64,000 nucleotides of DNA from Trypanosoma brucei. Its lineage: Eukaryota. The stretch covers positions 192,001 through 256,000 of the forward strand of contig CP000071.1 of assembly GCA_000002445.1 (NCBI GenBank), in the 5' to 3' direction. Of this stretch, positions 8,618-41,700 are shown piece by piece. The notes beneath the pieces were generated by a model. The model was not told the origin of the DNA, ran no database searches, and saw nothing but the letters and a program-made list of their open reading frames with translations. The stretch's first letter is position 1; every line of letters starts with the position of its first letter. A program made the position numbers and the translations under genes.

Positions 8618-8700
8618 TTCCCAACGTAAAACAAAATACACACACGCACACGCAACAACAGAAAGAAGTTTTTTTAAAAAAAAAGCACAAACAAACAAAA
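8618..8700 (-). promoter_or_regulatory. Poly-pyrimidine tract and probable trans-splice acceptor region upstream of the 4484-8617 gene (minus-strand sense)
   Basis: The minus strand reads ...gtgctttttttttaaaaaaacttctttctgttgttgcgtgtgcgtgtgtgtattttgttttacg... immediately 5' of the ATG. This is inferred from kinetoplastid mRNA processing rules, not mapped. Confidence 0.35.
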
Positions 8701-11347: not shown

Positions 11348-11830
11348 TCATTCAAAGGCATTTACGCATGATTCCACTACATTTAAGAGGTTTGTGTTTT
11401 CTAACGCAGCAGCCACACGTTCCTTGTCGCCAAGTTGTTTGTTTACCTGCTCCTCCTGTTCGTGTGATCCAGGTGTAACGCATATGTCAACTTTCATATT
11501 GCGCGGTAAGCACCTTTTGAGTTTGAGACCAATGCAAAGGCCAATTAGTGTGGTTAAACTGCAATGTGGAACTGTAGGAGTGAATTGGACACGCACCGTT
11601 TGTCTTTCCTCATCCACACTAATCAGTTTTGGGTCAACAACCTGAAGTTCCTCCAATGTATTGGGATGTTCCGGGTCACGAATGGTGCGAATCAGTTCAT
11701 AAATTTCCAACCCGTCGATGGGGTCCCTTACATCTTCGCAGAGTTCCTCCTTTTCCTGTTCAACTGTCCGTTTCCGCTTCCCCAAATTGCCGCGAAAGAC
11801 AGTGGGATTGGGATTGACGAGTTCCTCCAT
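11348..11830 (-). CDS. MIP18/FAM96 family (DUF59) protein, a cytosolic Fe-S cluster assembly CIA2-type factor
   Basis: [12 protein letters not shown]...[30 protein letters not shown]...[29 protein letters not shown]...[43 protein letters not shown]. The DPEHP and TPTVPHCS hallmarks and near-colinearity with human FAM96A/B are evident. Start is chosen at the internal ATG (11828-11830), because the upstream 22 codons of the track ORF ([15 protein letters not shown]...) are translated poly-T spacer. Confidence 0.8.
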
Positions 11831-12634
11831 AACGAGACTAATTTCAGCACTCAAAAAAAAAAAATAATTAAAAAAAACAAACGGGCGCCACGACACACTT
11901 CACTCAACCCCTCCCCTCTTTTCCCTTGCGGCTACAGAAACAGTCCGCTAGAAATAATAATAATAATAATATTAATTGGAGGAAAATAATGGAGTAGTTG
12001 ACGAATGAGAAAACAGCAGACAGGGAAATAAAAGAAATACGTAAAAAGTTAATTAAATGATTTATTAACAACGAAAGTATCACACGCCGTTAGCTGAGCA
12101 AAGAAAGAAAAGAATCTGCCACAGACACGCGCACGCACGTACGACTCAAATAAAACCCAACTAACGGCGATGCAAAGAACAAACTCATTTACCGAAGATT
12201 ACATTCGTAAACTCAGGTTCGTTCTTTTTATTATTCGCGCTTATTTGATCCCTTCTTTATTTATTTCCCGTGACTCATCTCTCCCTATATCTTTTTTTTT
12301 CAAAAAAAAAAAATGAGTTCAGCTTTGCAGATGCCTGGCTGCCAACCACGTGCCGCAACATTATTTCCTCTCACTCCTCCCACATGCTCCGCGGTGGCGC
12401 CTCACGGGTTCCTCCCCACCCGTCAGCATTGCAAATGTATTCGATTCCTTTATTATTATTTTTTTTTCTTGTCCTTTAGTTTTTTGTATGTATGCAAGCA
12501 TGCACAGGCATTTATATTTAATTCGTTCAAAACCGATTTAGTGGGGCACGGAGGATGTTAACAGGAAACACTTTCACAGCCCACAACACCTTAGGGGAAA
12601 GAAAGAAAGGAGCGGAATAAAACTCGTTTTAGAA

Positions 12635-13396
12635 TTAGAACCGCCCCCGCTTCCGATCGTTATTATTTCCGTTAAAGTTTGGTTTCGACTTGTTCCGCGG
12701 GGGTTCCTGGACGCCCCTCTGCTGCTGTTTGCTCTGCTGGGCCACATGCCCTTCGGATTTGCCCACCTTTTGTTTCTTAGCGGGGGGTTCCTCGTCCTCA
12801 TCCTCCTCCTTTTCTTGATCATCATCATCCTCATCTTCATCTTCATCATCTTCATCTTCATCATCTTCGTCATCTTCATCATCTTCCTCATCTTCGTCAT
12901 CGTCATCGTCACTGTCGTCTGTACGATCTACGACCTGTTGGCGCTTCGTTGCTGCGTTACCGTTCTTTTTCCCGTCTGTGAGTGGTACGCCTGCCATGTC
13001 ATCACCATCATCCAATCCCGTGTCTTCCCCTTCTTCTTCCTCCTCCTCCTCCTCAGCGTTGTCGTATTCCCCACTTCCACTCAAAGCAGCGGAAAGCATT
13101 CCTTCCGACTCCTGCTGATACCCACAACAATGAAGAACAGCATTTCCCTTCACACGGAAGACAACTTCTTGTTCATAACCAAAAACGATATCGACGGGAG
13201 TTTGCATCAGTTGCTGAGAAACGTCAAGAGTGAGAAGAGAAAACGATTCACCATCAACTGTCACATACAACGTGCTGCGGCCCTTCACACCGTGCTTTAC
13301 AGAAACAACAGAAAGGTGAAATGAGTGATGCTTTTCCAGCACCAACTTGTGTTCCTTGCCCGGAACGACCTCGAAACCATGAAACATGGGCGCCAT
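12635..13396 (-). CDS. Nucleoplasmin-like (HD2/FKBP-NPL type) acidic nuclear protein with a basic C-terminal tail ending RKRGRF
   Basis: The N-terminus MAPMFHGFEVVPGKEHKLVLEKHHSFHLSVVSVKHG...STLYVTVDGESFSLLTLDVSQQLMQTPVDIVFGYEQEVVFRVKGNAVLHCCGYQ matches the plant HD2 / insect FKBP39 NPL pattern (FWG.EV.PG ... L.H.SQA ... L.V.V.......LGTLS ... DLVF..E.E.......GSVY..GY). It is followed by poly-Glu/Asp tracts and a Lys/Arg-rich end. Confidence 0.75.
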   Translation of the reverse strand: MAPMFHGFEVVPGKEHKLVLEKHHSFHLSVVSVKHGVKGRSTLYVTVDGESFSLLTLDVSQQLMQTPVDIVFGYEQEVVFRVKGNAVLHCCGYQQESEGMLSAALSGSGEYDNAEEEEEEEEGEDTGLDDGDDMAGVPLTDGKKNGNAATKRQQVVDRTDDSDDDDDEDEEDDEDDEDDEDEDDEDEDEDDDDQEKEEDEDEEPPAKKQKVGKSEGHVAQQSKQQQRGVQEPPRNKSKPNFNGNNNDRKRGRF

Positions 13397-14139: not shown

Positions 14140-14199
14140 NNNNNNNNNNNNNNNNNNNNNNNNNNNNNNNNNNNNNNNNNNNNNNNNNNNNNNNNNNNN
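14140..14199. other. Assembly gap (60 N) inside a NOPP44/46 gene copy
   Basis: A literal run of n. The flanks do not join colinearly: the left flank is unique sequence and the right flank resumes inside the NOPP N-terminal domain. Confidence 0.99.
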
Positions 14200-14469
14200 A
14201 GTCAAATGCACTGAGCCAGAACCCGTGGCGGAAAGAGTGGTTCCCTGCTCTGCGGTTAACACGAGGTCGATGCCCATTTGAAATAGGCTCCGCTTGGGGT
14301 CAAGCGTGGCAATGGTAAATTCCTTCCCCTGAAAGGATATCACAAGAGTAATAGCACCACTTGCATTCGCAGGCACAGCAATTTGTGTGAGACGAAGTAC
14401 GTGGTCTTCGGGTATCTTCGGTTTGACCTTCTGCCCGGCACTCACTTCAACACCGTAGAAACCCTTCAC
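14200..14469 (-). CDS. NOPP44/46-type gene copy, N-terminal NPL-like domain only. It is truncated by the assembly gap, and its canonical start codon is replaced (ATG GAG GGT becomes GTG AAG GGT), so it is a possible pseudogene or has an alternative start.
   Basis: It encodes ...VKGFYGVEVSAGQKVKPKIPEDHVLRLTQIAVPANASGAITLVISFQGKEFTIATLDPKRSLFQMGIDLVLTAEQGTTLSATGSGSVHLT, identical to residues 2-90 of the 16921-17907 gene, and then runs into the Ns. The 5' flank (14470-14870) is unrelated to the 5' flanks of the other copies. Confidence 0.5.
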
Positions 14470-14870
14470 AAATGTTAAATGCAATACGCCTTTACTAATG
14501 GAAAATACAAAATGAATCGGAGACAACGGTGAAAGCATAGATAAGGGAAAGCGTAACACTGACGTACGCTACCAAACAATAGGCAAACACAGGGAAAAAA
14601 CACAGTCACATTCAATGTGTCGAAACCTCTGTGTTTTTCTGTTACCAAGCCACCTCCATGACAGGCAAATCATGTCACATCACGAACGCTTTCATTTTCG
14701 AACGCTTAATTACCATTATAGAAGCCCAAATAATCATTATTTCTACCCCACCCAATCCCATTTATGTCTCAGTTTCTTCTTCGCTCGTAAAATATCTCTG
14801 CATTTAGATGCGTTACCGATGTTTTCGTTGCTAAAACACATACTAACAAATAACAACAAATATTTACCAC

Positions 14871-15195
14871 AACTGAAGGTAGAGAAATGTGGTCGCTCAA
14901 GCGGTGCATGTCAGTACAAGCACAAACATTAATAACAATATCACAATTTCTCCATGCCTCCACGTGCAACACAACATCCGAACATGAGGGGATATATCGT
15001 CATCACACGTATCAATCATAGAACACGAGTGTAATAAGAGGTTAGCCTCGTAGTCAAATGCATAAACGGGAATAATAATGAGGCATATATCACGTATTCC
15101 ATAAGATTACTCTCTCAGTTACAACAATGCGGCACATCACATGGCACATATATCATTTTTAGTAACGACCCCTCCCAGAGTTCCCGCCGCGGAAT
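14871..15195. repeat. Copy 1 of a repeated 3'-flank/3'-end module of the NOPP array (about 325 bp shared by three gene copies)
   Basis: The string caactgaaggtagagaaatgtggtcgctcaagcggtgcatgtcagtacaagcacaaac...catttttagtaacgacccctcccagagttcccgcc recurs near-identically at 16633-16957 and 18296-18606. Confidence 0.9.
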
Positions 15196-16259
15196 CCACC
15201 TCTATTCCAGACCGCATTTGTTCCGCCTCTTCCGCTGTAAGGGGGCAGAGTGCGAGATGCATCGTTTAGGTGGTGATTTGGTGGGAAAGGATAGTTGTTT
15301 CGGCTGGAATAGGGATGAAAACCCCTATTTATTGCAGCAAACCCCCTTCCTAACAAATTGCTTGACATTCCTTGCCACTCACCCCCGCTATACAAGTACC
15401 TTTCTTCATTGGTATATCCCCTTCTCATTTCACCATTTGCTTGCCCTCTATACCCGCCACCCATGTAACCTCTTCCCCTACTTGAATACCCACCTCTCCC
15501 GTACCCTCTGTTCATTCCCAACTGATCCGCTTCATGGATTGGTTCATTATAAATGGCACCGAAACCACCTTGGGAAGAAGTGCTATTTATTCTCTGACGT
15601 CCACGTTGCCTGAAAAAACCCTGATGAACACCGCCGTACCCTCCTTCACCGTTGTAACGAAAGTAACCTCCCCGACGATATCTATGCTCATCCACGTGTT
15701 GTTCGTTGTGAAACTCGACTCCTCCCTCATGCCTAATTTTTGAAGGTCGCTCTTCGCCCTTATCGCCTCTCTTCCCAATTTTTTCCACACCATCATCAAC
15801 GCTCACAATACCTTCAACATCATAGTCACTTTCGCTGGTATTGTTTGAACTTTGCACTGATGTTTTACAAGCGGGCGCTACGCCACGAAAAGGCGGCGGC
15901 GCCATTTTCTCGAATGGGACACCACTGCAAATCTCACCACCGCAACTTGACTCACCATCCGTAACATTCTCAATAGGTTGTATATATCCAGTCACATGCA
16001 CTGAGCCGTTGCCAGTGGCGGAAAGAATAATATTCTGCTCTGCTTTAATCACAAGGTCAATCCCCATTTGCGATACATTCCTCACAGGATCAAGAGAAGC
16101 GATAGTAAATTCTTTACCCTGAAGGGAAACGACAAGAGAGACGGCATCACTTGTATTCGCAGGCACAGCAATTTGTGTGAGACGAAGTACGTTACCCTCC
16201 GGTATCTCTGGAATAACTTTCTCCCCGACGCTCACTTCAACACCGTAGAAACCCTCCAT
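15159..16259 (-). CDS. NOPP44/46-related paralog. It keeps the NPL-like N-terminal domain, has no acidic tract, and ends in a Tyr/Gly/Arg-rich low-complexity (RGG/YG, FUS-like) tail with RGGNSGRGRY.
   Basis: The N-terminus MEGFYGVEVSVGEKVIPEIPEGNVLRLTQIAVPANTSDAVSLVVSLQGKEFTIASLDPVRNVSQMGIDLVIKAEQNIILSATGNGSVHVTGYIQP is about 75% identical to the NOPP copy at 16921-17907. The tail is ...YRRGGYFRYNGEGGYGGVHQGFF...NRGYGRGGYSSRGRGYMGGGYRGQANGEMRRGY...NRGGFRGGNSGRGRY. The last ~12 codons and the 3' flank are identical to the NOPP copy. Confidence 0.8.
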   Translation of the reverse strand: MEGFYGVEVSVGEKVIPEIPEGNVLRLTQIAVPANTSDAVSLVVSLQGKEFTIASLDPVRNVSQMGIDLVIKAEQNIILSATGNGSVHVTGYIQPIENVTDGESSCGGEICSGVPFEKMAPPPFRGVAPACKTSVQSSNNTSESDYDVEGIVSVDDGVEKIGKRGDKGEERPSKIRHEGGVEFHNEQHVDEHRYRRGGYFRYNGEGGYGGVHQGFFRQRGRQRINSTSSQGGFGAIYNEPIHEADQLGMNRGYGRGGYSSRGRGYMGGGYRGQANGEMRRGYTNEERYLYSGGEWQGMSSNLLGRGFAAINRGFHPYSSRNNYPFPPNHHLNDASRTLPPYSGRGGTNAVWNRGGFRGGNSGRGRY

Positions 16260-16486: not shown

Positions 16487-16957
16487 CTCTCATCATTATC
16501 CTTTGTTATCATTATTATTCTTATTCACGCTGATTCATCGTTTATATTTTCTCTCCTTATATTACTCAACCATTTCTTTAGTGTCCTCTAACGCTGTCCA
16601 TAATTTCAAGCGCAAGAAAAACGTTGCACTACAACTGAAGGTAGAGAAATGTGGTCGCTCAAGCGGTGCATGTCAGTACAAGCACAAACATTAATAACAA
16701 TATCACAATTTCTCCATGCCTCCACGTGCAACACAACATCCGAACATGAGGGGATATATCGTCATCACACGTATCAATCATAGAACACGAGTGTAATAAG
16801 AGGTTAGCCTCGTAGTCAAATGCATAAACGGGAATAATAATGAGGCATATATCACGTATTCCATAAGATTACCCTCTCAGTTACAACAATGCGGCACATC
16901 ACATGGCACATATATCATTTTTAGTAACGACCCCTCCCAGAGTTCCCGCCACGGAAG
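16487..16957. repeat. Copy 2 of the array intergenic/3'-end repeat (about 470 bp shared with 18149-18606; the 3' 325 bp is also shared with 14871-15195)
   Basis: Direct comparison of the three regions. It starts at ctctcatcattatcctttgttatcattattattcttattcacgctg... Confidence 0.9.
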
Positions 16958-17907
16958 TTGCCGCGATTCCCGCCACGGAAGTTACCACGGTTTCCTCCAC
17001 GATCCCCGCCACGGAAGTTGCCACGGTTTCCTCCACGATCTCCGCCACGGAAGTTTCCACGGTTTCCTCCGTTACCACTTCGGTCTCCGCCGCGGAAGTT
17101 TCCACGGTTTCCTCCACGGTCTCCGCCACGGAACCCTCCGCGATTACCACCGTTACCGTTTCGGTCCCCACCACGGAACCCCCCGCGATTACCACCACGG
17201 AACCCTTGTTGCTCAGTGCGTTGCACTTTACTGGCTGGCTCATCATCATCATCGTCATCATCATCATCATCATCATCATCGTCATCGTCATCGTCATTAT
17301 CATTATCATTATCATCTTCTTCATCATCGTCATCGTCATCGTCATCGTCACTGTCGTCTTCATCGTAGGCTTCATCATCATCATCATTGTCGTCTTCGTC
17401 ACCCGCGTCAATTCCTTCATTGTCCTTTTCAATACCTTCCTCGTCATCGGATTCGTCGTCTCCATCGACGCCGTCACCATTTGCTTCATCGGAATTCTCT
17501 TCGCTTACAGGAAACTTGGCAGATTTCCCTCCTCTTTTCGGGGGAACTCCGTAGGATTCCATATCTTCAGCATCCACCTCATCGAGATCATCTTCCTCAT
17601 CAAAATCACTTCCATCATCAACAGGTTGAACGTATCCAGTCAAATGCACTGAGCCAGAACCCGTGGCGGAAAGAGTGGTTCCCTGCTCTGCGGTTAACAC
17701 GAGGTCGATGCCCATTTGAAATAGGCTCCGCTTGGGGTCAAGCGTGGCAATGGTAAATTCCTTCCCCTGAAAGGATATCACAAGAGTAATAGCACCACTT
17801 GCATTCGCAGGCACAGCAATTTGTGTGAGACGAAGTACGTGGTCTTCGGGTATCTTCGGTTTGACCTTCTGCCCGGCACTCACTTCAACACCGTAGAAAC
17901 CCTCCAT
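16921..17907 (-). CDS. NOPP44/46: Nucleolar phosphoprotein NOPP44/46-type: NPL-like N-terminal domain, long Asp/Glu tract and C-terminal RGG/RGN repeats
   Basis: MEGFYGVEVSAGQKVKPKIPEDHVLRLTQIAV...GSVHLTGYVQP, then an acidic region (over 40 consecutive Asp residues encoded by GAT/GAC repeats), then roughly 11 RGGF/RGGN/RGNF repeat units, ending GGNSGRGRY. This domain order matches the described T. brucei NOPP44/46. Confidence 0.85.
   Translation of the reverse strand: MEGFYGVEVSAGQKVKPKIPEDHVLRLTQIAVPANASGAITLVISFQGKEFTIATLDPKRSLFQMGIDLVLTAEQGTTLSATGSGSVHLTGYVQPVDDGSDFDEEDDLDEVDAEDMESYGVPPKRGGKSAKFPVSEENSDEANGDGVDGDDESDDEEGIEKDNEGIDAGDEDDNDDDDEAYDEDDSDDDDDDDDDEEDDNDNDNDDDDDDDDDDDDDDDDDDEPASKVQRTEQQGFRGGNRGGFRGGDRNGNGGNRGGFRGGDRGGNRGNFRGGDRSGNGGNRGNFRGGDRGGNRGNFRGGDRGGNRGNFRGGNRGNFRGGNSGRGRY
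16945..17215. repeat. Coding minisatellite: periodic repeats of about 30-36 nt encoding the (GGDRGGNRGNFR)n RGG box
   Basis: Recurring ccgccacggaagttgccacggtttcctccacgatc units on the plus strand. Confidence 0.85.
17241..17365. repeat. Coding trinucleotide repeat (ATC/GTC on plus, equal to GAT/GAC, encoding poly-Asp)
   Basis: catcatcatcatcgtcatcatcatcatcatcatcatcgtcatcgtcatcgtcattatcattatcatt... read directly. Confidence 0.9.
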
Positions 17908-18148
17908 TGCTGCCGATTGGAATGTAATTTATCTACCACCATTGCAAGACAAAGTCAGGTATTGCGAGGAAAGAGAGAAAAGGTTACAAACTCCAAGGGG
18001 CAAAGAGTAAAAAATACAAAAAAAAACACCGCCATCGGACAAAACACACAAAATGAAAGTGTTATTACCCAAAAGTAAGTACCAGGAAACAGATTCCATT
18101 ATATGCAAAGCGACCTATCACCTTCTTCCACATCCTCTGTCCCTCCCA

Positions 18149-18606
18149 CTCTCATCATTATCCTTTGTTATCATTATTATTCTTATTCACGCTGATTCAT
18201 CGTTTATATTTTCTCTCCTTATATTACTCAACCATTTCTTTAGTGTCCTCTAACGCTGTCCATAATTTCAAGCGCAAGAAAAACGTTGCACTACAACTGA
18301 AGGTAGAGAAATGTGGTCGCTCAAGCGGTGCATGTCAGTACAAGCACAAACATTAATAACAATATCACAATTTCTCCATGCCTCCACGTGCAACACAACA
18401 TCCGAACATGAGGGGATATATCGTCATCACACGTATCAATCATAGAACACGAGTGTAATAAGAGGTTAGCCTCGTAGTCAAATGCATAAACGGGAATAAT
18501 AATGAGGCATATATCACGTATTCCATAAGATTACCCTCTCAGTTACAACAATGCGGCACATCACATGGCACATATATCATTTTTAGTAACGACACCTCCC
18601 AGAGTT
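18149..18606. repeat. Copy 3 of the array repeat, ending in the last 8 codons of a further NOPP copy and then a gap
   Basis: Identical to 16487-16945 except for occasional single-base differences (for example gacacctccc versus gacccctccc). Confidence 0.9.
18583..18606 (-). CDS. 3'-terminal fragment (…NSGRCRY-stop) of an additional NOPP44/46 copy whose body is lost in the assembly gap
   Basis: The minus strand reads aactctgggaggtgtcgttactaa, giving N S G R C R Y stop, colinear with the C-terminus of the 16921-17907 gene. The 60 N follow immediately. Confidence 0.45.
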   Translation of the reverse strand, partial: NSGRCRY

Positions 18607-18666
18607 NNNNNNNNNNNNNNNNNNNNNNNNNNNNNNNNNNNNNNNNNNNNNNNNNNNNNNNNNNNN
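18607..18666. other. Assembly gap (60 N) at the upstream edge of the NOPP array
   Basis: Literal n run. The sequence after the gap is unique, not NOPP-like. Confidence 0.99.
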
Positions 18667-19317: not shown

Positions 19318-21252
19318 TCAGGTTTTCCACGTTATTGTGGAAAGCCAATTTTTGTGGTGGGCAACTATTACCTGAAGGAAACCATCCTCGACCAACAACC
19401 AAGAGAGACCAGAGATGATATTCTCTAATGGCTGGTGGGGTCGGTTGCCGTTCTCCAAGTGAACATTAGCGGTGTCGCTCCCCTCCTCTCGCTCCCGGTT
19501 GTTATCTGTGTTTTGGTCCGTCTCTCTTCTTAAATCGTCGGGTGCCTCCTCGTCAAAGTGATCTGATTCGGGGGGCCCCAATGGCACGGTACTGTGTACG
19601 GCATATGATTGTAGGTTACGGTCAAGGAGAACAACCTCATTAAGAGTTGTGCTGTGGCATAGCCAGTGACGCACAAAACTTCGCTGGTATTTCGTGTGCG
19701 AAGTCTTCTGTAGAACCGGTCCTCCCTCACAAATGAATGTTAGCGCCCCACTCGTCATGTTCCGTGCTAGAACGGTGCACACAAAGGCGGGACATGTGGC
19801 ATCGTAGGCCGCCGAGTGCCTGCACCTCCTAAACTCTTTGTAGCTTTTCGAACCACTGCCATCCTCTGTTAGCTCTGTGCTCGCCAAAACGCTCATGACT
19901 TTTCCATCTAATGTGCCAACGACCGTACCTACACTCGAATAAGTGTAGGTGGCGGAGGAAATGCCGCAGAAAAATCGCTTGGGTGGTGCCAACTCATACC
20001 CACAACCACCGTTTGTAGCGGACGCACACTTCACTACGACTGCGCGATCTTCGTACGGGGAAGAGCAAATGATAACCCCGTCAAGGCACTGCGAAAAGAG
20101 ACCTGACTTTAGCCAATAAGCACCAGAAGTTTCACTAATTTCCTCACCTCTGTTACGTCGTGCAGGGAACACCGAAGCAAGACGAGTCACCGGAAAGATA
20201 GATGATACAAGACCCGTTAGTGGAATATGGTGAACTATACCCGTACATATTCCGCAATCTTCCACATGAACGACAAGCACGCCGTGTAGAAGTGTTCCAA
20301 CAACCACAAAAGGCCGGTCAAAGATCTCGTTAACATCCAGTGGTACAACATGACGTGGAAAGGAGAATGAGGAAACGCACGATAGTACATTTGCCAGCAC
20401 TCGCGGAGCAATACTTTTACACTCAACACCAGGCCCCGTATTTATGAATACCAACCTCTCTTCACAGGGGAGGGACACCACAACACAGTTAGGAATCCGG
20501 TACAACCACAGACAACGGCAGGGGATAGAACTGAAGGAGAAAGTTCCTAGGGGGGAATGCAACGTCCCCTCCGATTCCGCTATCGGTTCACCGGTGGTCA
20601 GCGACACGTTATCGTCGTGTTGGCTGCCCGATTCTGCAAAACGGCGTACCATATCATTTACCTCCTCTACGTGTTGCAGCGTGCCGATAACTAATTGGGC
20701 ACGCGGCGATTGCGATAGCTGCACCTCGTACGGCCTCGTAGGTACTTGCCAGTACACACCTGATTCAGGCGAATCATCGTCCTCACGCCTCTCTGGTATC
20801 AACGGTAGTAGAAACCGTCGTCCCTCGGTTATAATCAACGCTATTAAACGATTCCCTCTGCGAAGACGGGGATCCCCCCGAAGCTCAGTTATTGTTGTAG
20901 GACCTATGTCCCACTGGCAGTGGTCAGTCTCAGCATCCCTTTGTGGAACGCTCTCCTCGGAAACTTTGGGCCAGCACCAACTAACGGCAAATAACGGGGT
21001 GAGGGTTGGCTTCATGGTTTGACGTACCATTTTGTCAAAGAGGAAAACCTCCTCCTCCTCATCTGGCGTTTCCACGGTGCCGCCGACACCTTCTCGGAGT
21101 GCATCGGCAACTTCTTGGCGAGGACGTGGGGAAAGTTTACGTCTACTATTCCCCCGTGCTAACTCTACAACACTCTCGCCACCGGTATCCTTAGTCATTT
21201 CAGAAGTGGCATGTGACGTACCCTTCCCCTCATTCATATCGTGTAGGGACAA
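19318..21252 (-). CDS. Hypothetical protein (644 aa) with no recognisable domain
   Basis: Uninterrupted minus-strand ORF. Its codon usage is similar to neighbouring genes, it sits on the same strand as the whole unit, and only short shadow ORFs lie opposite it. Confidence 0.6.
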   Translation of the reverse strand: MSLHDMNEGKGTSHATSEMTKDTGGESVVELARGNSRRKLSPRPRQEVADALREGVGGTVETPDEEEEVFLFDKMVRQTMKPTLTPLFAVSWCWPKVSEESVPQRDAETDHCQWDIGPTTITELRGDPRLRRGNRLIALIITEGRRFLLPLIPERREDDDSPESGVYWQVPTRPYEVQLSQSPRAQLVIGTLQHVEEVNDMVRRFAESGSQHDDNVSLTTGEPIAESEGTLHSPLGTFSFSSIPCRCLWLYRIPNCVVVSLPCEERLVFINTGPGVECKSIAPRVLANVLSCVSSFSFPRHVVPLDVNEIFDRPFVVVGTLLHGVLVVHVEDCGICTGIVHHIPLTGLVSSIFPVTRLASVFPARRNRGEEISETSGAYWLKSGLFSQCLDGVIICSSPYEDRAVVVKCASATNGGCGYELAPPKRFFCGISSATYTYSSVGTVVGTLDGKVMSVLASTELTEDGSGSKSYKEFRRCRHSAAYDATCPAFVCTVLARNMTSGALTFICEGGPVLQKTSHTKYQRSFVRHWLCHSTTLNEVVLLDRNLQSYAVHSTVPLGPPESDHFDEEAPDDLRRETDQNTDNNREREEGSDTANVHLENGNRPHQPLENIISGLSWLLVEDGFLQVIVAHHKNWLSTITWKT

Positions 21253-21735: not shown

Positions 21736-24700
21736 CTACACAACTGGCGCAACCGCAACCCCAGCGAAATCTGTGTTTACTGGTGGTGCTACATTGCTGT
21801 TGAGCAACGGCGGTACAGGCAATGGCACCGGGGCAGGAACCGCAGCAACCGCGCCACCAACGGCAGAAACGAGCAGGGGGGCCGTTGCAATTTCAGGCGG
21901 CAAAGGAACAGGTGTGGGCAGTTGCTCCAGTCGCAAATTTACGGGATTAGAAGCAACTACGATGTTGTTACCTGTCGATAGCTGCGGTGACACCTGTGGA
22001 GGGAGCGGCAAACGACTCGGTGTAGCCGGCACCACTTGAACCTGTGGGGGAGAAGTTGTCGAATGAGTCGGCAAGCCTCCAACAGATTCCGGATTAAGCT
22101 GCGGTGCCACTGGCACAGGTGACTGCAAGGGCAGAATAGACGGAGCTGAGGAGTTCTCGAGTTCCCTTGTCAAGAGCGTGGGAGCCAGCGGCGTCAGCAG
22201 TGGTGTTTGCTTGTTAGGGGGTGGGTTGACTGCAACTGGTTGAATTGAGAGAGGAGTTGCAAGTGACACACCCGCTGCGGGTTTCACAACATCTAACGTA
22301 TTTTTCGAGACGGTAATTTCTTGCGCTCGCGGTGGGGACAAAGAAGCAAGAATGCGGCTTCTAACGGACATCGGGCTTGTTTGCGGCGCCACTCCAGAAA
22401 TCGACGGGGCTGATGATAGATGAACGATGTTCCCTTCTACCTGCGTACTCTTCATCTGCACCGCTTGTCTCAGAGTTGAAATATCTGAATTTAAGCTCAT
22501 AATTAATGTTTGCTTCTCCATGAGCTCTTTTTCCAATGATTTAGTAGTTGCGCAAGCTTCCAGTAACTGGTGGGTCAGTGACTCTCTCTCTTTAGTTTGG
22601 CGCGCTAGTTCAGTTTTCATCCGGTCAACTTCGCAATCTTTTTCGCGAAGCAATGCCTCCATGCTACTATTACCAACGGACAGGGCAGCAGCTGCTTGAG
22701 CCTGAAGCTGCTCACAGTGTTCCTTCCAGGACCGGGAATTTTTCTTTGCATCGTCAACCTCACCTTGCAACTCCTTCTCTCTGATCGCTGCTTCCTCAAG
22801 AAGACGTTTCAGCCGTCGTTCCTCTTCATCACGCATTCGCTGCGAGTTACTTAACCCCTCGTTTATTCCTGCAGCACGTTGCAGTGCTTCCTCCTGTTCG
22901 TGACGAAGTCTTTGGATATCGCGATCCCTGGACTGTAAGGATGCCTCAAAGTCCTGTCGCTGCTTCTCCAGTTGTTGCCTGAGTCCTAGGTTTTCCGCCG
23001 TAATTTGTGCAGCACCACATTGCTCCCGCCGTAACTCTTCAACAACACCTTGAAGTTCTTTTGCGGTACGGTCCTTCTCCGAAAGGCGCTGACTCCACAT
23101 CCGCTCGCTTTCACGTCTCACTTCCTCAATTTTCTCTCGTTGTTGTGCTAACTCCCGCTTTGTCATCTCCAGTTGTCTCTCAGACTCACGAAGTTGTTTC
23201 ACCACTTGTCCCTTTTCCCCCTCTAAAATCCGGCGAGCCTCTTCGTGGTGTTCATTCATTCGTTTGTAAACCGATTCAAAGTCTCTGGACAGTTCGTGTG
23301 CTGCAGTGCTGTCAGCGTTGTGCATGTCCCCACGCATACGCTGAATCTCACCTTCATGGGCCGCTTTGGCACGTGCAATTTCATCAACTAACTCTTGCTT
23401 CTCCTCACGTAACACACGTAATTCCGCACTCTGCTTAGCCGATAATGACTCGAGCTCACCCTGCAAAGTGTGAAGTGCATTCCGTGCTTCACCAGCTGTC
23501 CGTTCGGAATCCGTAGCACGTCGTTCCAAACGTTGCTGGGACGCCAATGCGTCTTGTAGCTGCTTCCTAACAGTACGCAACTCCTCTCGCAGCCGAGCCT
23601 CCTCTGAAGCAGCCGCTGTTGCTGCCGCTGCCTTCGTCCTCCATTGCTGAATATCCGCTTCAGCCTCTCGCTGCCGTTGCTGTTGTTCTTCCAATGTCCT
23701 TTCGAGCATCCTCAGCTGTGAATTGCACCTCTCTTCGTCCTCAGTTCGCATCCTCTCGTGCGTATTGTTGATGCGCCGCAGTTCCTCTTCAAACCACCGT
23801 TTCATGCTCAGCTTGTCATCCTCAAATGTACGTTGTAGTACTTCCACAGTCTTCCGATGCACGTCTGCAAGGGCCTCCTCTGACGACCGTGATTTTGAAC
23901 AAGATTCCTGTTTTTGTCGCACTTCGTTTAGTTGATTCACTACCTGGGAAAATATTTCCCGTGCTTCTGCAGCTTGCTGTTCACTCCTAGCTATCATTTG
24001 CCGTTTGGATTCTATGTCGTGACGCAGTGCGGCTATTTCGCTCTTGTAGGACTGGTGTAGCTGGTTTGCCTCCGCTCGGTATTCGCGTTCGCGCTCACGC
24101 ATCTCATTACATATTCGCTCCACCATCACATTGGTCGCGCTCTTCACGGTTTGCTCCACAACGTTGTGGCACTCCGATATCTCCTTTTGGCTTTGTATTC
24201 GTACCTCTGACTCCTCACGCAACCGTTGCATTGCCCTTTCATGTTGTCGCTCACGCATTCGCTCTTCCTCTTCAATATGCCGGCGTCGTTCACGCTCTAA
24301 CTCCCTCGCCCGCTCGTGCTTCCATTCTTCCAGTTCCCTTTCCTGTGCAAGGAGACGCTGTCGTTGTTCCTCTTCCCGTTTCGCACGCGACTCCTCCAGT
24401 TGTCTGGCGGTTTCGATTAGCGATTGCTGCTCCTCTTCCCGCTCATATCGCCGAGTGCGCTCTTCTTCCATACGTCGACGAGCCTCCTCTGCACGACAGA
24501 GTTGGTTATACTCATCTCGTATCTGAAACTCACGTTGAAGCAGTAAGGCCTCAGGGGTCCCTACGTTCGAGTAACCGGCACAAGTTCCCGTGCCGAGGGT
24601 AAAGAGAACGCATTTGCTGAACCCCAGCCGGCTACCGGACGCCATACGGTACGGTAGGTTTTCGCCCTGCATTCCAATGGGTGGCATAGGCTTATTCAAA

Positions 24701-24813
24701 ATGGAAGATAAAATGGACGAAGCAGTAACATCACTTTGAAGCATAGGTGGCATAACTGAAGTATACGTCTGCAAAAACCTGCCGGAAGGATGTGAAGCAA
24801 CGCAGTCTCCCAT
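21736..24813 (-). CDS. Coiled-coil protein (1025 aa): Ser/Pro-rich N-terminus, about 650 aa of E/R/Q/L-rich heptad-like sequence, and a Pro/Val/Ala-rich C-terminus
   Basis: ORF containing ...REEEQRQRLLAQERELEEWKHERARELERERRRHIEEEERMRERQHERAMQRLREESEVRIQ... and many similar segments. The C-terminal 300 aa are PVPLPPE / PAPVPLPVPPLL-type low complexity. Confidence 0.75.
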   Translation of the reverse strand: MGDCVASHPSGRFLQTYTSVMPPMLQSDVTASSILSSILNKPMPPIGMQGENLPYRMASGSRLGFSKCVLFTLGTGTCAGYSNVGTPEALLLQREFQIRDEYNQLCRAEEARRRMEEERTRRYEREEEQQSLIETARQLEESRAKREEEQRQRLLAQERELEEWKHERARELERERRRHIEEEERMRERQHERAMQRLREESEVRIQSQKEISECHNVVEQTVKSATNVMVERICNEMREREREYRAEANQLHQSYKSEIAALRHDIESKRQMIARSEQQAAEAREIFSQVVNQLNEVRQKQESCSKSRSSEEALADVHRKTVEVLQRTFEDDKLSMKRWFEEELRRINNTHERMRTEDEERCNSQLRMLERTLEEQQQRQREAEADIQQWRTKAAAATAAASEEARLREELRTVRKQLQDALASQQRLERRATDSERTAGEARNALHTLQGELESLSAKQSAELRVLREEKQELVDEIARAKAAHEGEIQRMRGDMHNADSTAAHELSRDFESVYKRMNEHHEEARRILEGEKGQVVKQLRESERQLEMTKRELAQQREKIEEVRRESERMWSQRLSEKDRTAKELQGVVEELRREQCGAAQITAENLGLRQQLEKQRQDFEASLQSRDRDIQRLRHEQEEALQRAAGINEGLSNSQRMRDEEERRLKRLLEEAAIREKELQGEVDDAKKNSRSWKEHCEQLQAQAAAALSVGNSSMEALLREKDCEVDRMKTELARQTKERESLTHQLLEACATTKSLEKELMEKQTLIMSLNSDISTLRQAVQMKSTQVEGNIVHLSSAPSISGVAPQTSPMSVRSRILASLSPPRAQEITVSKNTLDVVKPAAGVSLATPLSIQPVAVNPPPNKQTPLLTPLAPTLLTRELENSSAPSILPLQSPVPVAPQLNPESVGGLPTHSTTSPPQVQVVPATPSRLPLPPQVSPQLSTGNNIVVASNPVNLRLEQLPTPVPLPPEIATAPLLVSAVGGAVAAVPAPVPLPVPPLLNSNVAPPVNTDFAGVAVAPVV

Positions 24814-25609: not shown

Positions 25610-28600
25610 CTAAACGTATTTTGCGGGATCAGAAAAGCTGGATTCCCTCACCTTGCACGCCTCATCAGACACAAAGACACCCTTCCGCAGCCGCGTAAAA
25701 TCATTCGCTACGGTGACTGCGTTGGTACTCAAGCGCCGCAAGGCTTTAAGGATCCGTGATTCCACGCGGCTTTTCTCTCGGTGTTCAACACGCAGTGCAT
25801 CTTCCAGGTGACGGACTTCTCCCCTTAATTGTGCCCTAAGGCCCTCACAACTTGAGGTAAAGAGGGTGCCTACACTACTTAACAGCGTGGCATGATTCAC
25901 GCCGTCCAGCTGAAACCATGGACGAAAAGTCATGGATGAGAGCGTTTGCTGCCAGACCGCGAGAATGAACCACAACGGATTCAGCGAAGGGTGTGTGCTA
26001 CTCCACCGACAGTCAGATTCAAGTCGATTTTGTTTAGCTGATTCATTGCCAGGGGCATCACAACTACCATCGGAGAACGAAGTTACTTCACTAATTGCCG
26101 TGGAAACGGAAGTTGCTTCGTCATGTGGTACGTTCGTGATATTATCCGTCCAGCAACCCAGCGAGGAGATTAGGTCCTCAGGTTTCGCAGGTGTATATAG
26201 CAGGTCATCATTTTGGAAGTGGGACTGCAGCGGTCGTCCACAAGACAGATTCATAGCTAGCCTTAAGTCCCTTCTCTGAAGAGCACATATCCTATTCTCG
26301 CACTTGCCAAGGTACGATAACGTCCGCCCACCACACTTTACCTCATCTGTGCCAAAGAACCCCTCACCCACCAACATCAGCATAATCTGATCCTCAACAA
26401 CCGACGTGCGTAATCCAGTAACAAACGGTTCCAAACTTCCAAGCGGTTGCATGTTCAAAAGACTGCAGTTGGCTAGCTGTTCCCGCTTCGAGTCAAGTGC
26501 ATTCCAGTTTATTCGATCAGAACATTCATGCATCTTTAGTAGCGCAAACAACTGTACCAACTTCAAATCCATCACATCCCGTTGCGCTCCACAGACCTGG
26601 GCAATATCAGGTATTGCTTCAGATAGTTCTTGCATCAAATAGTTAATTATCTCAGTGTTAAAACGCGACAAACGCAACGTCAACTCCCGCTCCATTATCA
26701 CCTTGAGCTCCCTTGCATTATCCTCGACGTAGGGTATATGATGCCTCATATCTTCTGCGGTGGCAGACACTTTGGTGGCAGCAAACCCCCCTATTGTTTC
26801 CCTTCTTGTTTCCGCCACCAACTCCAAAACTACCGCATCGGCACCCTCCAGCCTCGCGCCAACTGTTTCCTTCGTTTTCGCAGCGGCAACGTTGCGAATA
26901 CGCATCGCCTGCTCCGCAATGATCGCCCTCAGTTGCTGTATCTGCTTTCGATAATCCAAACTAATGAAATGGCGATGAAGATCCCTAAACTCTGTAAGCA
27001 AACGCTTGCGTACAGCAAGCGACACGTCTGAAGGACCTGATGGAAGCGGGCACCTTCTCACGACAGGCCTCCGCTTGGTTAAGTGGTCGTCGTTCATGTC
27101 TTCATATGCCTCATCCAACAAATCTAATACTTTCCCCCAAAACGCAACAGTGACAGACTTGAACTTTCGTTGCACCACTGTTTCAAAATCTCTAACCACA
27201 ACCCGAGGTGCTGGGATCTCTTTGAAACCCCCCAATGCCTCTCTCACAACATTGTCCAGGTTCTGTACCTTTGTCAAGTTCATGCGGATGCTGCGTGAGC
27301 GTCGTGTCGCACTTTTACGTGCCCGCACAAGCACAGTACGCAGTTGGTGACACCATATTACGAGAGAGACGGCAACCCGAGTGAAAACGGAAAGTTCTGT
27401 GTTCTTTTCGAAAACCCGCACAGCGCGCAGCAGTTGCTGGGCACCCGATTTATTCCACATGCTGTTCACAGCATCATATAGCACCAACTGCTCCAGTTGT
27501 TGTGGCGGTAATTGCTCCTTCCGGTTTCCGTAATTTGCGCCGAAGACCACGCGACAGTACGCTTCCACCGCTGTCCTTGCCGATTCTTCCTCACAACTCC
27601 TATCGTTGCTGCGCGAAACACCACCACCACCGACGCCCGCGTCTGACTCCGTCAGTGCCGACGGGGAAAGGGATGGAACGCGTTCTCTGTTCTGTGAGTT
27701 TCTCGCTGGTGTTTCCTGCTTCTCTTCGGCCGCTGCAAGGCTGAGCCGTCGCAGCTTGTCGTTGTATAGGGCGGAAAGCACAGAATGCGTCGCATGACTC
27801 ACGGTACCACTGTACGGTATCACTTGCCAACTTGAGACAGCAACACCAAAAAGTTTCATCATATTCTCTTGAAAAAGTTCAATCAGTTCTGGAATGCTAG
27901 AGGCCATTGGAGGCGGGCGCTGGATAAGCTGCACATCGTTTATAGAAGCACCAGCTTCGCGCATGAGCACTGCATCGGTGAAGGTAATCACAAAAAAGGT
28001 CATATCAGCAATAAGCTGACGAATCTTTTGTGACTCACTTTCTTTGCTGGAACCTTCCATGCTTTGCCATTGGTTCTCACGAGCGGGGTGCGTCTCGTGT
28101 TTGCTAACCGCCCGACTACTGCTGAAACTGCTACTCAACATCTCAGAGGAATTGTCATCATCGATGCGTTGTGTGAAGGGGGAAAACAAGTTGCCAACAG
28201 ACTCCACCATGTGCTGCGTGCCGATCACCTCGCAGGGGACAGTGTACAGAAGACCGTCACCAAGTAACAAATCGGGGAGTTGATACGATGACATGGCCCC
28301 TCTCTCGCTCCAAACGACTTCACTCGCTAACTCTTTCAGCAACCACGGGGAGCTACGGGAAACACCTGATTGGGAAGAGTGGATGGACGAGGCATATAAC
28401 TTTTCGGACGAGCACCATGATTTACTGGGACACATGGGTAGCGTGCAACGGCGCTGCGGGCTAGGCTTGTCTCGAATTAGCGATTTCCTAGGGCTCTTCT
28501 GCAAGGCGCAAATGCGTTCTTGAATAGTCACGTCATATGCACCAGGTCTGATTGTGCTGACTCGTACCGGTGTGGGTGCCTGATAAGTGGATAATGTATC

Positions 28601-40909: not shown

Positions 40910-41700
40910 GCGCTGAGAGGTGATTGCCGACTGCACAAAAGGGATGAGTGAATAGTCAGAACTAAAATAAACCAAGAGACACCTTTGATGCTGGCAATGA
41001 GAAAACCTTCTACAATTTTTTTTTCTTTTCCTTACAATCTAACCTTCCCCTCACACTTTTATTTCAGTTTACTCTTTCAGAGTTATCTGCGCCTCTGCTC
41101 TATTCTCCACCTGACCGACTTGATATAGAAAGATACTGGTGGTGCACAACCTCAAAGGGTAAGGTGGAGCAAAGCTGAATCCAATTTATATTGGCATACC
41201 CACATGCAACAGTTTCAAACAAATCATCCGAGCAGTACAAACTTATGCTCTAGTGGGAAACTTCCCCAGCATATCGACAATTTAAAAAGATTGCAATGAA
41301 ATACAGGTTCATTAGGAAATGTGAAAGGAACTTCCAGGAGAGAAAGAAAAAAGGGTGCAGAAAGTATGTTAAGTCTTCATCCCTTATCTTCTGTGCAAGA
41401 TACAAAAATACCATTGGATGCCTACTCCCCAATCTTAAACTACAAGGTTATTTCTTCTTCAATAGACAAAAGCAAATAAGTTAATATATACCTACCCCGC
41501 ACGTCGAGAATTTCACAAACCTCAACACATATACACAAATATACACATATACATACATACATATATATACACGACACGTGTGTACAAACATATCTGTACA
41601 CTAATGAACGCGATATAGCAGAGAGGACCTTGGTCAACGTAAGCCCTACTAACTCCTTTTATACACAGACAGACGTAAACATATATTTATTTATTTAAAT

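What the first reader, a model, noticed from the sequence alone, without database searches (positions are those of the whole stretch)
16921..17907. The NOPP44/46 'unique' N-terminal region is an HD2/FKBP-type nucleoplasmin-like (NPL) domain
Residues 1-100 (MEGFYGVEVSAGQKVKPKIPEDHVLRLTQIAV...KEFTIATLDP...IDLVL...GSVHLTGYVQP) follow the plant HD2 histone-deacetylase / FKBP39 NPL pentamer signature (MEFWGVEVK.GKP..V.P....LHLSQA.L ... LG.L ... DLVF ... GSVYF.GY). They are followed, as in HD2 and nucleoplasmin, by an acidic tract. This implies pentameric, histone- or ribosomal-protein-chaperone-like behaviour for the whole array. It also links it to the separate NPL gene at 12635-13396. I recall this family relationship being mentioned in the literature, but the reference is uncertain.
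Basis: partly seen in the sequence, partly recalled or inferred. Interest (0 to 1): 0.55.

Follow-up and report, generated by a model that had tools for sequence, protein, structure and literature searches.

The report
NOPP44/46 N-terminus is a nucleoplasmin-like domain
The first ~95 residues of the Trypanosoma brucei nucleolar phosphoprotein NOPP44/46, long called "unique", clearly belong to the nucleoplasmin-like (NPL) domain family of plant HD2 and nuclear FKBP proteins; public domain databases already record this, so it is a correct but known assignment.

Summary
A 328-aa ORF lies at 16921-17907 on the minus strand. It has three parts: an N-terminal domain (1-95), an acidic tract (96-222, net charge -72) and an RGG tail (223-328).

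The N-terminal domain belongs to Pfam NPL (PF17800): E=3e-18, 66.8 bits against a cut-off of 23.4, covering profile positions 1-93 of 94. A profile of kinetoplastid homologues finds the solved NPL structures: FKBP43 at 1e-10, HDT1-4, and FKBP39 at 5e-8. An AlphaFold model (pLDDT 91.7) superposes on these and on nucleophosmin cores, with TM-scores of 0.73-0.88.

Two qualifications apply:
- The pore histidine of HD2/FKBP39 is arginine here (R-x-T...D, the variant reported for fungal Fpr4).
- The array paralogue at 15159-16259 has no acidic tract, so the "NPL plus acidic tract" pattern does not hold for the whole array.

The separate gene at 12635-13396 is also an NPL protein and keeps the canonical H-x-S...D.

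Oligomeric state and chaperone activity could not be tested here. They are inferred from conserved interface residues.

The assignment is already in public databases, and T. brucei appears in the 2015 NPL alignment. Trypanosome papers nevertheless still call the family "trypanosome-specific" and report no clear NPM1 orthologue. The only fresh angle is reading NOPP44/46 as a working analogue of nucleophosmin.

The parts
17623..17907 (-). NPL (nucleoplasmin-like) domain of NOPP44/46-1, residues 1-95. It is an 8-stranded beta fold. Pore and interface residues are R26, T28, D68, H88 and Y92.
   Evidence: Pfam PF17800 E=3.1e-18, residues 4-93. AlphaFold2 pLDDT 91.7 with beta strands through residue 95. 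Foldseek top hits are HDT2, HDT1, FKBP43, PfNPM, NPM1 and FKBP39, with TM 0.73-0.88.
17242..17622 (-). Acidic tract of NOPP44/46-1, residues 96-222. It is 44% D and 14% E, has a net charge of -72, and includes a 19-residue D/E run.
   Evidence: Composition computed.
16924..17241 (-). Short linker and RGG/RGN repeat tail of NOPP44/46-1, residues 223-328. It has 14 RGG motifs and a net charge of +17, and ends GGNSGRGRY. The stop codon is at 16921-16923.
   Evidence: A 36-nt-periodic DNA repeat lies at 16945-17142 (family D5). The NOPP44/46-1 RGG region is reported to be heavily arginine-methylated (PMC6299225).
15159..16259 (-). Array paralogue of 366 aa. Its sequence is identical to UniProt Q57YF6, 'nucleolar RNA-binding protein, putative'. 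By gene order it is Tb927.8.750 (NOPP44/46-2); no tool confirmed that gene ID. The NPL domain is 70% identical to that of NOPP44/46-1. The tail is Tyr- and RG-rich and has NO acidic tract.
   Evidence: Pfam NPL E=8.4e-17. BLASTP E=1e-53. Tail composition. Names and accessions.
14200..14469 (-). Partial array copy encoding NPL residues 1-90. It is identical to NOPP44/46-1 from residue 3, but reads GTG AAG where the others read ATG GAG. Its 5' flank is unrelated to the others. It is cut off by the assembly gap at 14140-14199.
   Evidence: The T. b. gambiense equivalent is annotated 'nucleolar RNA-binding protein, truncated' (P0001).
18583..18606 (-). Last 8 codons (NSGRCRY + stop) of a further array copy. 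The rest of that copy is hidden by the assembly gap at 18607-18666. The conserved 3' flank is repeated at 18147-18589.
   Evidence: (families D2 and D3).
12635..13396 (-). Separate NPL gene of 253 aa, identical to UniProt Q57YF7, 'nucleolar RNA-binding protein, putative'. It has an NPL domain with the canonical H-x-S...D (residues ~5-94), an acidic tract (~107-207, with a D/E run of 31) and a short basic C-terminus with KKQK and RKR. It has no RGG repeats.
   Evidence: Pfam NPL E=6.7e-16. BLASTP of the domains alone gives E=6e-17 at 31% identity. Composition. Names.

Best explanation
Residues 1-95 of NOPP44/46 form a nucleoplasmin-like (NPL) beta-sandwich domain of the HD2/nuclear-FKBP branch. 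By homology, this domain most likely self-assembles into a ring, a pentamer in the solved structures of NPL and nucleoplasmin cores. The ring would display several copies of the two disordered arms that follow it: a strongly acidic tract and an arginine/glycine-rich, nucleic-acid-binding RGG tail.

Such a multivalent particle with acidic, basic and RNA-binding parts would work like nucleophosmin. It would bind and shield basic proteins (ribosomal proteins, possibly histones) and RNA in the nucleolus. This fits the published requirement of NOPP44/46 for 60S subunit formation.

The proposed catalytic His of HD2-type domains is Arg here. An inter-subunit Arg26-Asp68 contact would therefore replace the His-Asp contact, and deacetylase chemistry is not expected.

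Status of each step:
- Shown here: family membership, predicted fold and domain architecture.
- Inferred: oligomeric state, binding partners and mechanism.
For: Family and fold:
- Pfam NPL scores E=3.1e-18 with full profile coverage.
- A profile of 9 kinetoplastid domains finds the solved NPL cores FKBP43 (1.3e-10), HDT2 (2.1e-9), HDT3, HDT1, FKBP39 (5e-8), FKBP53 and HDT4. Each of these entries has 5, 15 or 20 chains.
- The AlphaFold2 model has pLDDT 91.7 and pTM 0.80.
- The Foldseek PDB hits shown are all NPL, nucleoplasmin or nucleophosmin cores, with probability 1.00, TM 0.73-0.88 and rmsd 1.7-3.1 A.
- The same profile finds 864 relatives at E<=1e-3 in 1.84 billion cluster representatives.

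Interface:
- The FKBP39 residues named as inter-subunit contacts in PMC4414354 are F4, Y47, T51, Q58 and the H24-D62 pair.
- They align to F4, F51, T55, Q64 and R26-D68 of NOPP44/46-1 (alignment).
- F4, D68 and H88 are invariant in the kinetoplastid alignment.
- Across 161 related NPL domains the dominant residues are F4 (153), T55 (111), Q64 (96), D68 (135), H88 (140) and Y92 (128).

Architecture:
- The NPL domain is N-terminal and is followed by more than 100 charged, mostly acidic residues. PMC4414354 describes exactly this for all NPL proteins.

Biology from the literature:
- NOPP44/46 is nucleolar, is implicated in 60S maturation, and shuttles between nucleus and cytoplasm (PMC6299225). 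The export pathway is exportin 1, per the title of Hellman et al. 2007 in that paper's reference list.
- Depletion gives half-mers (PMC3854532).
- It is needed for bloodstream-form growth (PMC2864271).
Against:
- Full-length Drosophila FKBP39 was reported to be a tetramer rather than a pentamer (PMC5225439), so stoichiometry cannot be read off from the fold.
- FKBP39 Leu84, one of the three residues with the most inter-domain NOEs, aligns to Thr90.
- NOPP44/46 sediments in low-molecular-weight fractions of sucrose gradients (PMC3854532). This does not exclude a ~180 kDa pentamer, but it gives no support for one.
- The paralogue at 15159-16259 lacks the acidic tract, so an acidic chaperone arm is not universal in the family.
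- Similarity to true nucleophosmin is weak at sequence level (E=0.06). The analogy with NPM1 is therefore architectural, not orthology.
Confidence: 0.8

Rival explanations
1. The NPL fold is present, but in NOPP44/46 it is only a localisation or docking module, for example for nucleolar retention or kinase binding. It would be monomeric or in some other oligomeric state, and would have no chaperone role. The RNA-binding RGG tail would carry the ribosome-biogenesis function.
For: Oligomerisation and chaperone activity were not tested here. Full-length FKBP39 is reported to be a tetramer, and the distal regions of the chain influence its quaternary state. The paralogue without an acidic tract shows that the NPL domain is used with different tails. 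From my own memory, unverified: Das et al. 1998 (J Cell Sci) assigned nucleolar targeting and kinase association to distinct regions of the protein.
Against: Residues that form inter-subunit contacts in FKBP39 are conserved. Every solved NPL core found by the search was deposited with multiples of five chains. The arrangement of NPL followed by a long acidic tract is the hallmark of the chaperone members.
Confidence: 0.15
2. The domain is an HD2-type enzyme, a 'second family' histone deacetylase or other hydrolase that uses a conserved His/Asp pair. On this view NOPP44/46 is a nucleolar deacetylase.
For: The domain belongs to the same family as plant HD2/HDT proteins. The conserved Asp (D68) is present.
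Against: The proposed catalytic His is Arg in NOPP44/46 (R26). Edlich-Muth et al. found no HDAC or other hydrolase activity in the FKBP39 or Arabidopsis HD2 NPL domains. [quoted passage not shown]
Confidence: 0.02
3. The resemblance is a chance or compositional artefact of a short beta-rich region.
For: BLASTP of the full-length proteins fails to align NOPP44/46-1 with the neighbouring NPL protein. phmmer with the single sequence against the PDB gives only E=0.003.
Against: Pfam scores E=3e-18, 43 bits above the curated cut-off. The domain-only BLASTP gives 6e-17. Profile hits to solved NPL cores range from 1e-10 to 5e-5. The structural matches have TM around 0.8. The domain has ordinary composition and a net charge of -1.
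Confidence: 0.01

Closest known systems
Plant HD2/HDT 'histone deacetylases' (HD-tuins; solved NPL cores 7vmf, 7vrr, 7vmi, 7vmh)
   Same: Both have an N-terminal NPL domain. These are the best structural matches (TM 0.78-0.88, 28-29% identity), with profile E-values of 2e-9 to 5e-5. An acidic stretch follows the domain, and the proteins are nucleolar phosphoproteins.
   Different: HD-tuins end in a C2H2 zinc finger. NOPP44/46-1 contains no cysteine at all and ends in RGG repeats. The HD2 pore His (LHxSQ) is Arg (LRLTQ) in NOPP44/46.
Nuclear NPL-FKBPs (Drosophila FKBP39 4ca9, Arabidopsis FKBP43 7wim and FKBP53 6j2z, yeast Fpr3/Fpr4)
   Same: Both have an NPL domain (FKBP43 is the best profile hit, at 1.3e-10), an acidic linker and nucleolar localisation. 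The R-x-T...D pore variant of NOPP44/46 is the one described for fungal Fpr4.
   Different: NOPP44/46 has no C-terminal FKBP peptidyl-prolyl isomerase domain; Pfam finds only NPL. It also lacks the ~50-residue insertion between beta4 and beta5 that splits the Fpr4 domain.
Nucleophosmin NPM1/B23/NO38 and nucleoplasmin
   Same: The core fold is the same (TM 0.72-0.77). The overall logic is the same: an oligomerising core, then acidic tracts, then a C-terminal nucleic-acid-binding region. Both are nucleolar, both shuttle, and both have a role in ribosome biogenesis (NOPP44/46; NPM1: abstracts of PMC2989734 and PMC11312075).
   Different: Sequence similarity is only marginal (E=0.06), and Pfam Nucleoplasmin gives no hit at E<=1. 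The nucleic-acid-binding part is an RGG repeat rather than the folded NPM1 C-terminal domain (that NPM1 has such a globular CTD: PMC3902904 abstract). No intra-core A1 acidic loop is evident by eye in the NOPP44/46 domain sequence; this was not formally tested, and PMC3068996 reports the A1 tract as NPM-specific and absent from HD2/nuclear FKBPs. This is not an orthologue. Jeilani et al. 2022 state that T. brucei has no clear NPM1 orthologue.
Apicomplexan NPL proteins (Toxoplasma TgNF3, Plasmodium PfNPM 8zs0)
   Same: These are protist nucleolar or chromatin proteins with an N-terminal NPL core followed by acidic stretches. PfNPM is among the top structural matches (TM 0.75-0.88).
   Different: TgNF3 has its own C-terminal globular domain and keeps the His/Asp pair (H25/D67). 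NOPP44/46 has an RGG tail and Arg in place of that His.

Membership tests
NPL domain family (Pfam PF17800; HD2/nuclear-FKBP type) | Significant full-length match to the curated family profile | tested here: met
   E=3.1e-18, 66.8 bits against a cut-off of 23.4, residues 4-93 on profile positions 1-93 of 94. The paralogues score 8.4e-17 and 6.7e-16.
NPL domain family (Pfam PF17800; HD2/nuclear-FKBP type) | Eight-stranded beta jelly-roll fold that superposes on solved NPL cores | tested here: met
   This rests on a predicted model, not an experimental structure. The model has pLDDT 91.7 and beta strands spanning residues 3-95. Foldseek against the PDB returns HDT1-4, FKBP43, FKBP39, FKBP53 and PfNPM with TM 0.73-0.88 and probability 1.00.
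NPL domain family (Pfam PF17800; HD2/nuclear-FKBP type) | The domain sits at the extreme N-terminus and is followed by a stretch of more than 100 residues that is charged, mostly acidic and probably disordered (PMC4414354) | tested here: met
   Met for NOPP44/46-1: domain 1-95, acidic 96-222, net charge -72. Also met for the gene at 12635-13396. NOT met by the paralogue at 15159-16259, which has no acidic tract.
NPL domain family (Pfam PF17800; HD2/nuclear-FKBP type) | Homo-oligomeric (pentameric) ring | not testable with these tools
   Only indirect evidence is available. FKBP39 interface residues F4, Y47, T51, Q58 and D62 align to F4, F51, T55, Q64 and D68 and are conserved in the family. 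Full-length FKBP39 has been reported as a tetramer.
NPL domain family (Pfam PF17800; HD2/nuclear-FKBP type) | Conserved pore triad His-x-Ser on beta3 plus Asp on beta6 | tested here: not met
   NOPP44/46 has R26-x-T28 plus D68, the Arg-Thr-Asp variant known from fungal Fpr4. Among 161 related domains this position is His in 82 and Arg in 34. The feature therefore marks a subgroup and is not required for membership. The neighbouring gene at 12635-13396 keeps H-x-S...D.
NPL domain family (Pfam PF17800; HD2/nuclear-FKBP type) | Binding of histones or other basic proteins | not testable with these tools
   No computation available here addresses binding.
HD-tuin (plant HD2) subfamily | C-terminal C2H2 zinc finger | tested here: not met
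   Pfam finds no domain other than NPL. The 328-aa protein contains no cysteine (sequence).
NPL-FKBP subfamily | C-terminal FKBP-type peptidyl-prolyl isomerase domain | tested here: not met
   No FKBP_C hit at E<=1. The C-terminus is made of RGG repeats.
Nucleoplasmin/nucleophosmin family proper (Pfam Nucleoplasmin) | Significant sequence match to nucleoplasmin/NPM cores | tested here: not met
   No Pfam Nucleoplasmin hit at E<=1. The profile scores only E=0.058-0.54 against NPM1 chains. Only the fold matches.

The most novel reading that the evidence does not exclude
The NOPP44/46 array, together with the neighbouring NPL gene, encodes the trypanosomatid working equivalent of nucleophosmin. 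On this reading the NPL rings may be mixed, built from paralogues whose interface residues are identical but whose tails differ: acidic plus RGG, Tyr/RG-rich without an acidic tract, or acidic only. The combined acidic and arginine-rich arms would scaffold the granular component of the nucleolus and escort basic ribosomal proteins and pre-60S particles. The mix of paralogues and stage-regulated tyrosine phosphorylation would tune that behaviour. This would fill the gap stated in the field, that T. brucei has 'no clear ortholog of NPM1' (PMC9659390).
Probability: 0.3. Interest if true: 0.5.

Novelty: already known. Interest (0 to 1): 0.25.

Why it matters
NOPP44/46 is required for growth of T. 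brucei and is implicated in large-subunit ribosome biogenesis. Trypanosome papers describe it as 'nonconserved' or 'trypanosome-specific'. A 2022 study of nucleolar targeting states that T. brucei has no clear NPM1 orthologue.

The N-terminus is in fact a member of the nucleoplasmin-like superfamily, followed by an acidic tract and an RNA-binding tail. That places the protein in a well-studied mechanistic class: oligomeric acidic chaperones and nucleolar scaffolds. It also suggests concrete experiments on oligomeric state, mixed rings, binding of ribosomal proteins and phase separation.

The assignment is not a discovery. A curated Pfam model detects it at once, homologues are already labelled this way in public databases, and T. 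brucei sequences appear in the 2015 NPL alignment.

Tried and rejected
- The plus-strand translation of the given coordinates is meaningless; the gene is on the minus strand.
- phmmer with the single sequence against the PDB gave only marginal hits: HDT2 at 0.003, mixed with fatty-acid-binding proteins at ~0.1. A 9-sequence profile was needed for clear hits.
- BLASTP of the full-length proteins did not align NOPP44/46-1 with the neighbouring NPL protein, because the low-complexity tails dominate. The domain-only comparison worked.
- The first homologue search, with the 102-aa domain, returned only 8 proteins because of the word-index limit. The exhaustive profile search was used instead.
- Literature searches for an explicit NOPP44/46-NPL or NOPP44/46-nucleophosmin statement found none. 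The one paper that holds both 'NOPP44' and 'nucleoplasmin' does not link them. No paper holds both 'NOPP44' and 'nucleophosmin'.
- The primary NOPP44/46 papers are not in the library: PMC544161 (Jensen 2005) and PMC2168238 (Hellman 2007) could not be fetched. Neither the Das 1996/1998 papers nor Aravind & Koonin 1998 were available to read.
- The supplements of Edlich-Muth 2015 do not list the trypanosome accession used in their Fig. 2.
- Searches for gene IDs Tb927.8.730 and Tb927.8.740 mostly returned prefix artefacts such as Tb927.8.7300.
- A pentamer prediction was not attempted. The structure tool takes single chains from the window only, and a concatemer is not an allowed input.
- The deacetylase reading was considered and rejected (His replaced by Arg; published negative assays).
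Full report
**What is in the window.** The coordinates 16921-17907 hold a 328-aa ORF on the minus strand. The plus-strand reading is meaningless. It has three parts:
- residues 1-95, of ordinary composition, net charge -1;
- residues 96-222, 44% Asp and 14% Glu, net charge -72, longest D/E run 19;
- residues 223-328, a short linker and an RGG/RGN repeat tail with 14 RGG motifs, net charge +17.

All ORFs of 200 aa or more that look like genes lie on the minus strand, as expected for a trypanosomatid polycistronic unit. The two neighbouring paralogues are identical in sequence to T. brucei entries named 'nucleolar RNA-binding protein, putative' (UniProt Q57YF6 and Q57YF7; contig of 2.48 Mb). Published gene IDs place NOPP44/46-1 at Tb927.8.760 and NOPP44/46-2 at Tb927.8.750.

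**Is the N-terminus an NPL domain?** Yes, by three independent tests.
1. The curated Pfam model NPL (PF17800) matches residues 4-93 over profile positions 1-93 of 94. The E-value is 3.1e-18 and the score 66.8 bits, against a gathering cut-off of 23.4. No other family is found at E<=1.
2. A profile of nine kinetoplastid domains (alignment A1) was searched against all PDB sequences. It returns only NPL cores above noise, each aligned end to end: Arabidopsis FKBP43 (1.3e-10), HDT2 (2.1e-9), HDT3 (2.5e-9), HDT1 (9.4e-9), Drosophila FKBP39 (5e-8), FKBP53 (8.3e-8) and HDT4 (4.7e-5). Nucleophosmin follows at E~0.06.
3. AlphaFold2 on A1 gives a confident all-beta model (pLDDT 91.7, pTM 0.80). All 50 Foldseek PDB matches listed are HDT1-4, FKBP43, FKBP53, FKBP39, Plasmodium nucleoplasmin, human NPM1 or Xenopus NO38 cores. 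Probability is 1.00, TM-scores are 0.73-0.88 and rmsd is 1.7-3.1 A.

The same profile finds 864 relatives at E<=1e-3 among 1.84 billion cluster representatives. Chance is excluded.

- *The pore histidine is arginine.* The HD2 'LHLSQA' histidine is His24 of FKBP39. It is the residue once proposed to be catalytic, and it hydrogen-bonds to Asp62 of the neighbouring subunit. In NOPP44/46 it is Arg (L-R26-L-T28-Q), while the Asp is kept (D68). Edlich-Muth et al. describe this Arg-x-Thr...Asp variant for fungal Fpr4. Among 161 related NPL domains the position is His in 82 and Arg in 34.
- *The interface is otherwise conserved.* The remaining FKBP39 interface residues map to identical or conservative residues: F4 to F4, Y47 to F51, T51 to T55, Q58 to Q64, Y86 to Y92. 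This is the only evidence obtainable here for a retained ring interface, and it is indirect.
- *Not every array member has an acidic tract.* The paralogue at 15159-16259 has an NPL domain 70% identical to that of NOPP44/46-1. Its tail has no acidic tract (11% D+E, longest run 2) and is instead rich in Tyr and RG.
- *The separate gene is also NPL.* The gene at 12635-13396 scores Pfam E=6.7e-16, and the domain-only BLASTP gives 6e-17 at 31% identity. It keeps H-x-S...D, has a long acidic tract and a short basic end, and has no RGG repeats.

**Array anatomy.** The genes are part of a tandem array with a period of ~1.7 kb. The array is incompletely assembled:
- A partial copy at 14200-14469 encodes NPL residues 1-90. 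It reads GTG AAG in place of ATG GAG and has an unrelated 5' flank. It runs into a 60-N gap at 14140-14199.
- The last eight codons of a further copy (18583-18606) abut a second 60-N gap at 18607-18666.

Copy number therefore cannot be read from this window.

**How it most likely works.** Fold and architecture are shown here. The rest is inference from the family.
- NPL and nucleoplasmin cores form rings. The solved entries found here have 5, 15 or 20 chains. All NPL proteins are described as carrying long acidic disordered stretches after the N-terminal core.
- A ring of NOPP44/46 would display several acidic arms and several RGG arms. The RGG region of NOPP44/46-1 is reported to be heavily arginine-methylated, and the protein associates with RNA.
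- Published work implicates NOPP44/46 in 60S maturation. Depletion gives half-mers, the protein shuttles between nucleus and cytoplasm, and it is needed for bloodstream-form growth.
- The closest mechanistic analogue is nucleophosmin. It also has an oligomeric core and acidic tracts that bind arginine-rich motifs of nucleolar proteins, plus RNA binding through its C-terminal domain and disordered regions (PMC3902904 abstract).
- Deacetylase chemistry is unlikely, because the His is Arg and because NPL domains of FKBP39 and HD2 showed no such activity.
- Stoichiometry is uncertain, because full-length FKBP39 has been reported to be a tetramer.

**Is it new?** No, as a domain assignment.
- A curated Pfam model finds it directly.
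- All 8 homologues returned, including the truncated T. b. gambiense copy of this gene, carry PF17800 as a precomputed annotation.
- Two of them are named 'Nucleoplasmin-like domain-containing protein' by UniProt.
- The 2015 paper that defined the NPL family includes T. brucei, T. cruzi and L. braziliensis sequences in its alignment.

From my own memory, unverified here: Aravind & Koonin 1998 already grouped a trypanosome RNA-binding protein with HD2 and the nuclear FKBPs.

The trypanosome literature has not absorbed this. A 2018 paper calls NOPP44/46 'a trypanosome-specific protein family'. The 2005 functional paper's title calls it 'a nonconserved phosphoprotein' (reference list). [quoted passage not shown] No paper in the searchable library mentions both NOPP44 and nucleophosmin.

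**Verdict.** Novelty is 'already known'. Interest is low to moderate (0.25) and rests on the untested idea that this family is the trypanosome functional counterpart of nucleophosmin.

Noticed in passing
window 14140-14199 and 18607-18666: Two runs of exactly 60 N (assembly gaps) cut into the NOPP44/46 tandem array. One truncates a partial copy after NPL residue 90. The other hides all but the last 8 codons (18583-18606) of a further copy. The array's true copy number and variant content are therefore unknown from this sequence.
   Followed up: yes
window 14200-14572: The partial array copy reads GTG AAG where the other copies read ATG GAG. Its 5' flank is unrelated to the conserved 5' flank of the other two copies. 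It may be a pseudogene or the array boundary. The T. b. gambiense equivalent is annotated 'truncated'.
   Followed up: partly
window 15159-16259 (minus strand): This array paralogue keeps the NPL domain and the last 15 residues (NRGGFRGGNSGRGRY). Everything in between is replaced by a non-acidic tail rich in Tyr (19 Y in the whole protein) and RG. The array therefore encodes one N-terminal core with different arms, and mixed oligomers are conceivable.
   Followed up: partly
P0009 (not in window; top hit): A 651-aa protein of unknown origin carries five tandem NPL domains in one chain, each followed by a short acidic linker. It begins with a hydrophobic, signal-peptide-like N-terminus. It could be a single-chain pseudo-pentamer of a fold that normally assembles from five subunits. 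P0018 and P0083 each have two NPL domains.
   Followed up: no
P0002: A 114-aa protein labelled as coming from the plant bug Lygus hesperus (UniProt A0A0A9Z...) is 69% identical to the T. brucei NOPP44/46 NPL domain and starts with the same MEGFYG. This is most likely a trypanosomatid sequence in the insect transcriptome.
   Followed up: no
window 16903-17652 (+) and 16958-17368 (+): Long antisense ORFs (249 and 136 aa) overlap the gene. They are I/V-rich or S/P/R-rich low-complexity mirror images of the poly-Asp and RGG coding repeats, not genes.
   Followed up: partly
window 4484-8698, 11348-11896, 39908-40975, 41701-43362, 50762-54022 (all minus strand): Neighbouring minus-strand ORFs have these Pfam matches: RRM_1 (1404 aa), FeS_assembly_P/MIP18-like (182 aa), Radial_spoke-like (355 aa), VID27 WD40-like (553 aa) and WD40 repeats (1086 aa). 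Five other ORFs scanned in the same call gave no Pfam match: 19318-21252, 21736-24813, 25610-29530, 55305-57647 and 59405-60079.
   Followed up: partly
window 12635-13396 vs 16921-17907: BLASTP of the full-length proteins aligns only their low-complexity tails and misses the NPL-NPL homology. The domains alone give E=6e-17. This shows how composition-biased tails can hide a conserved N-terminal domain.
   Followed up: yes
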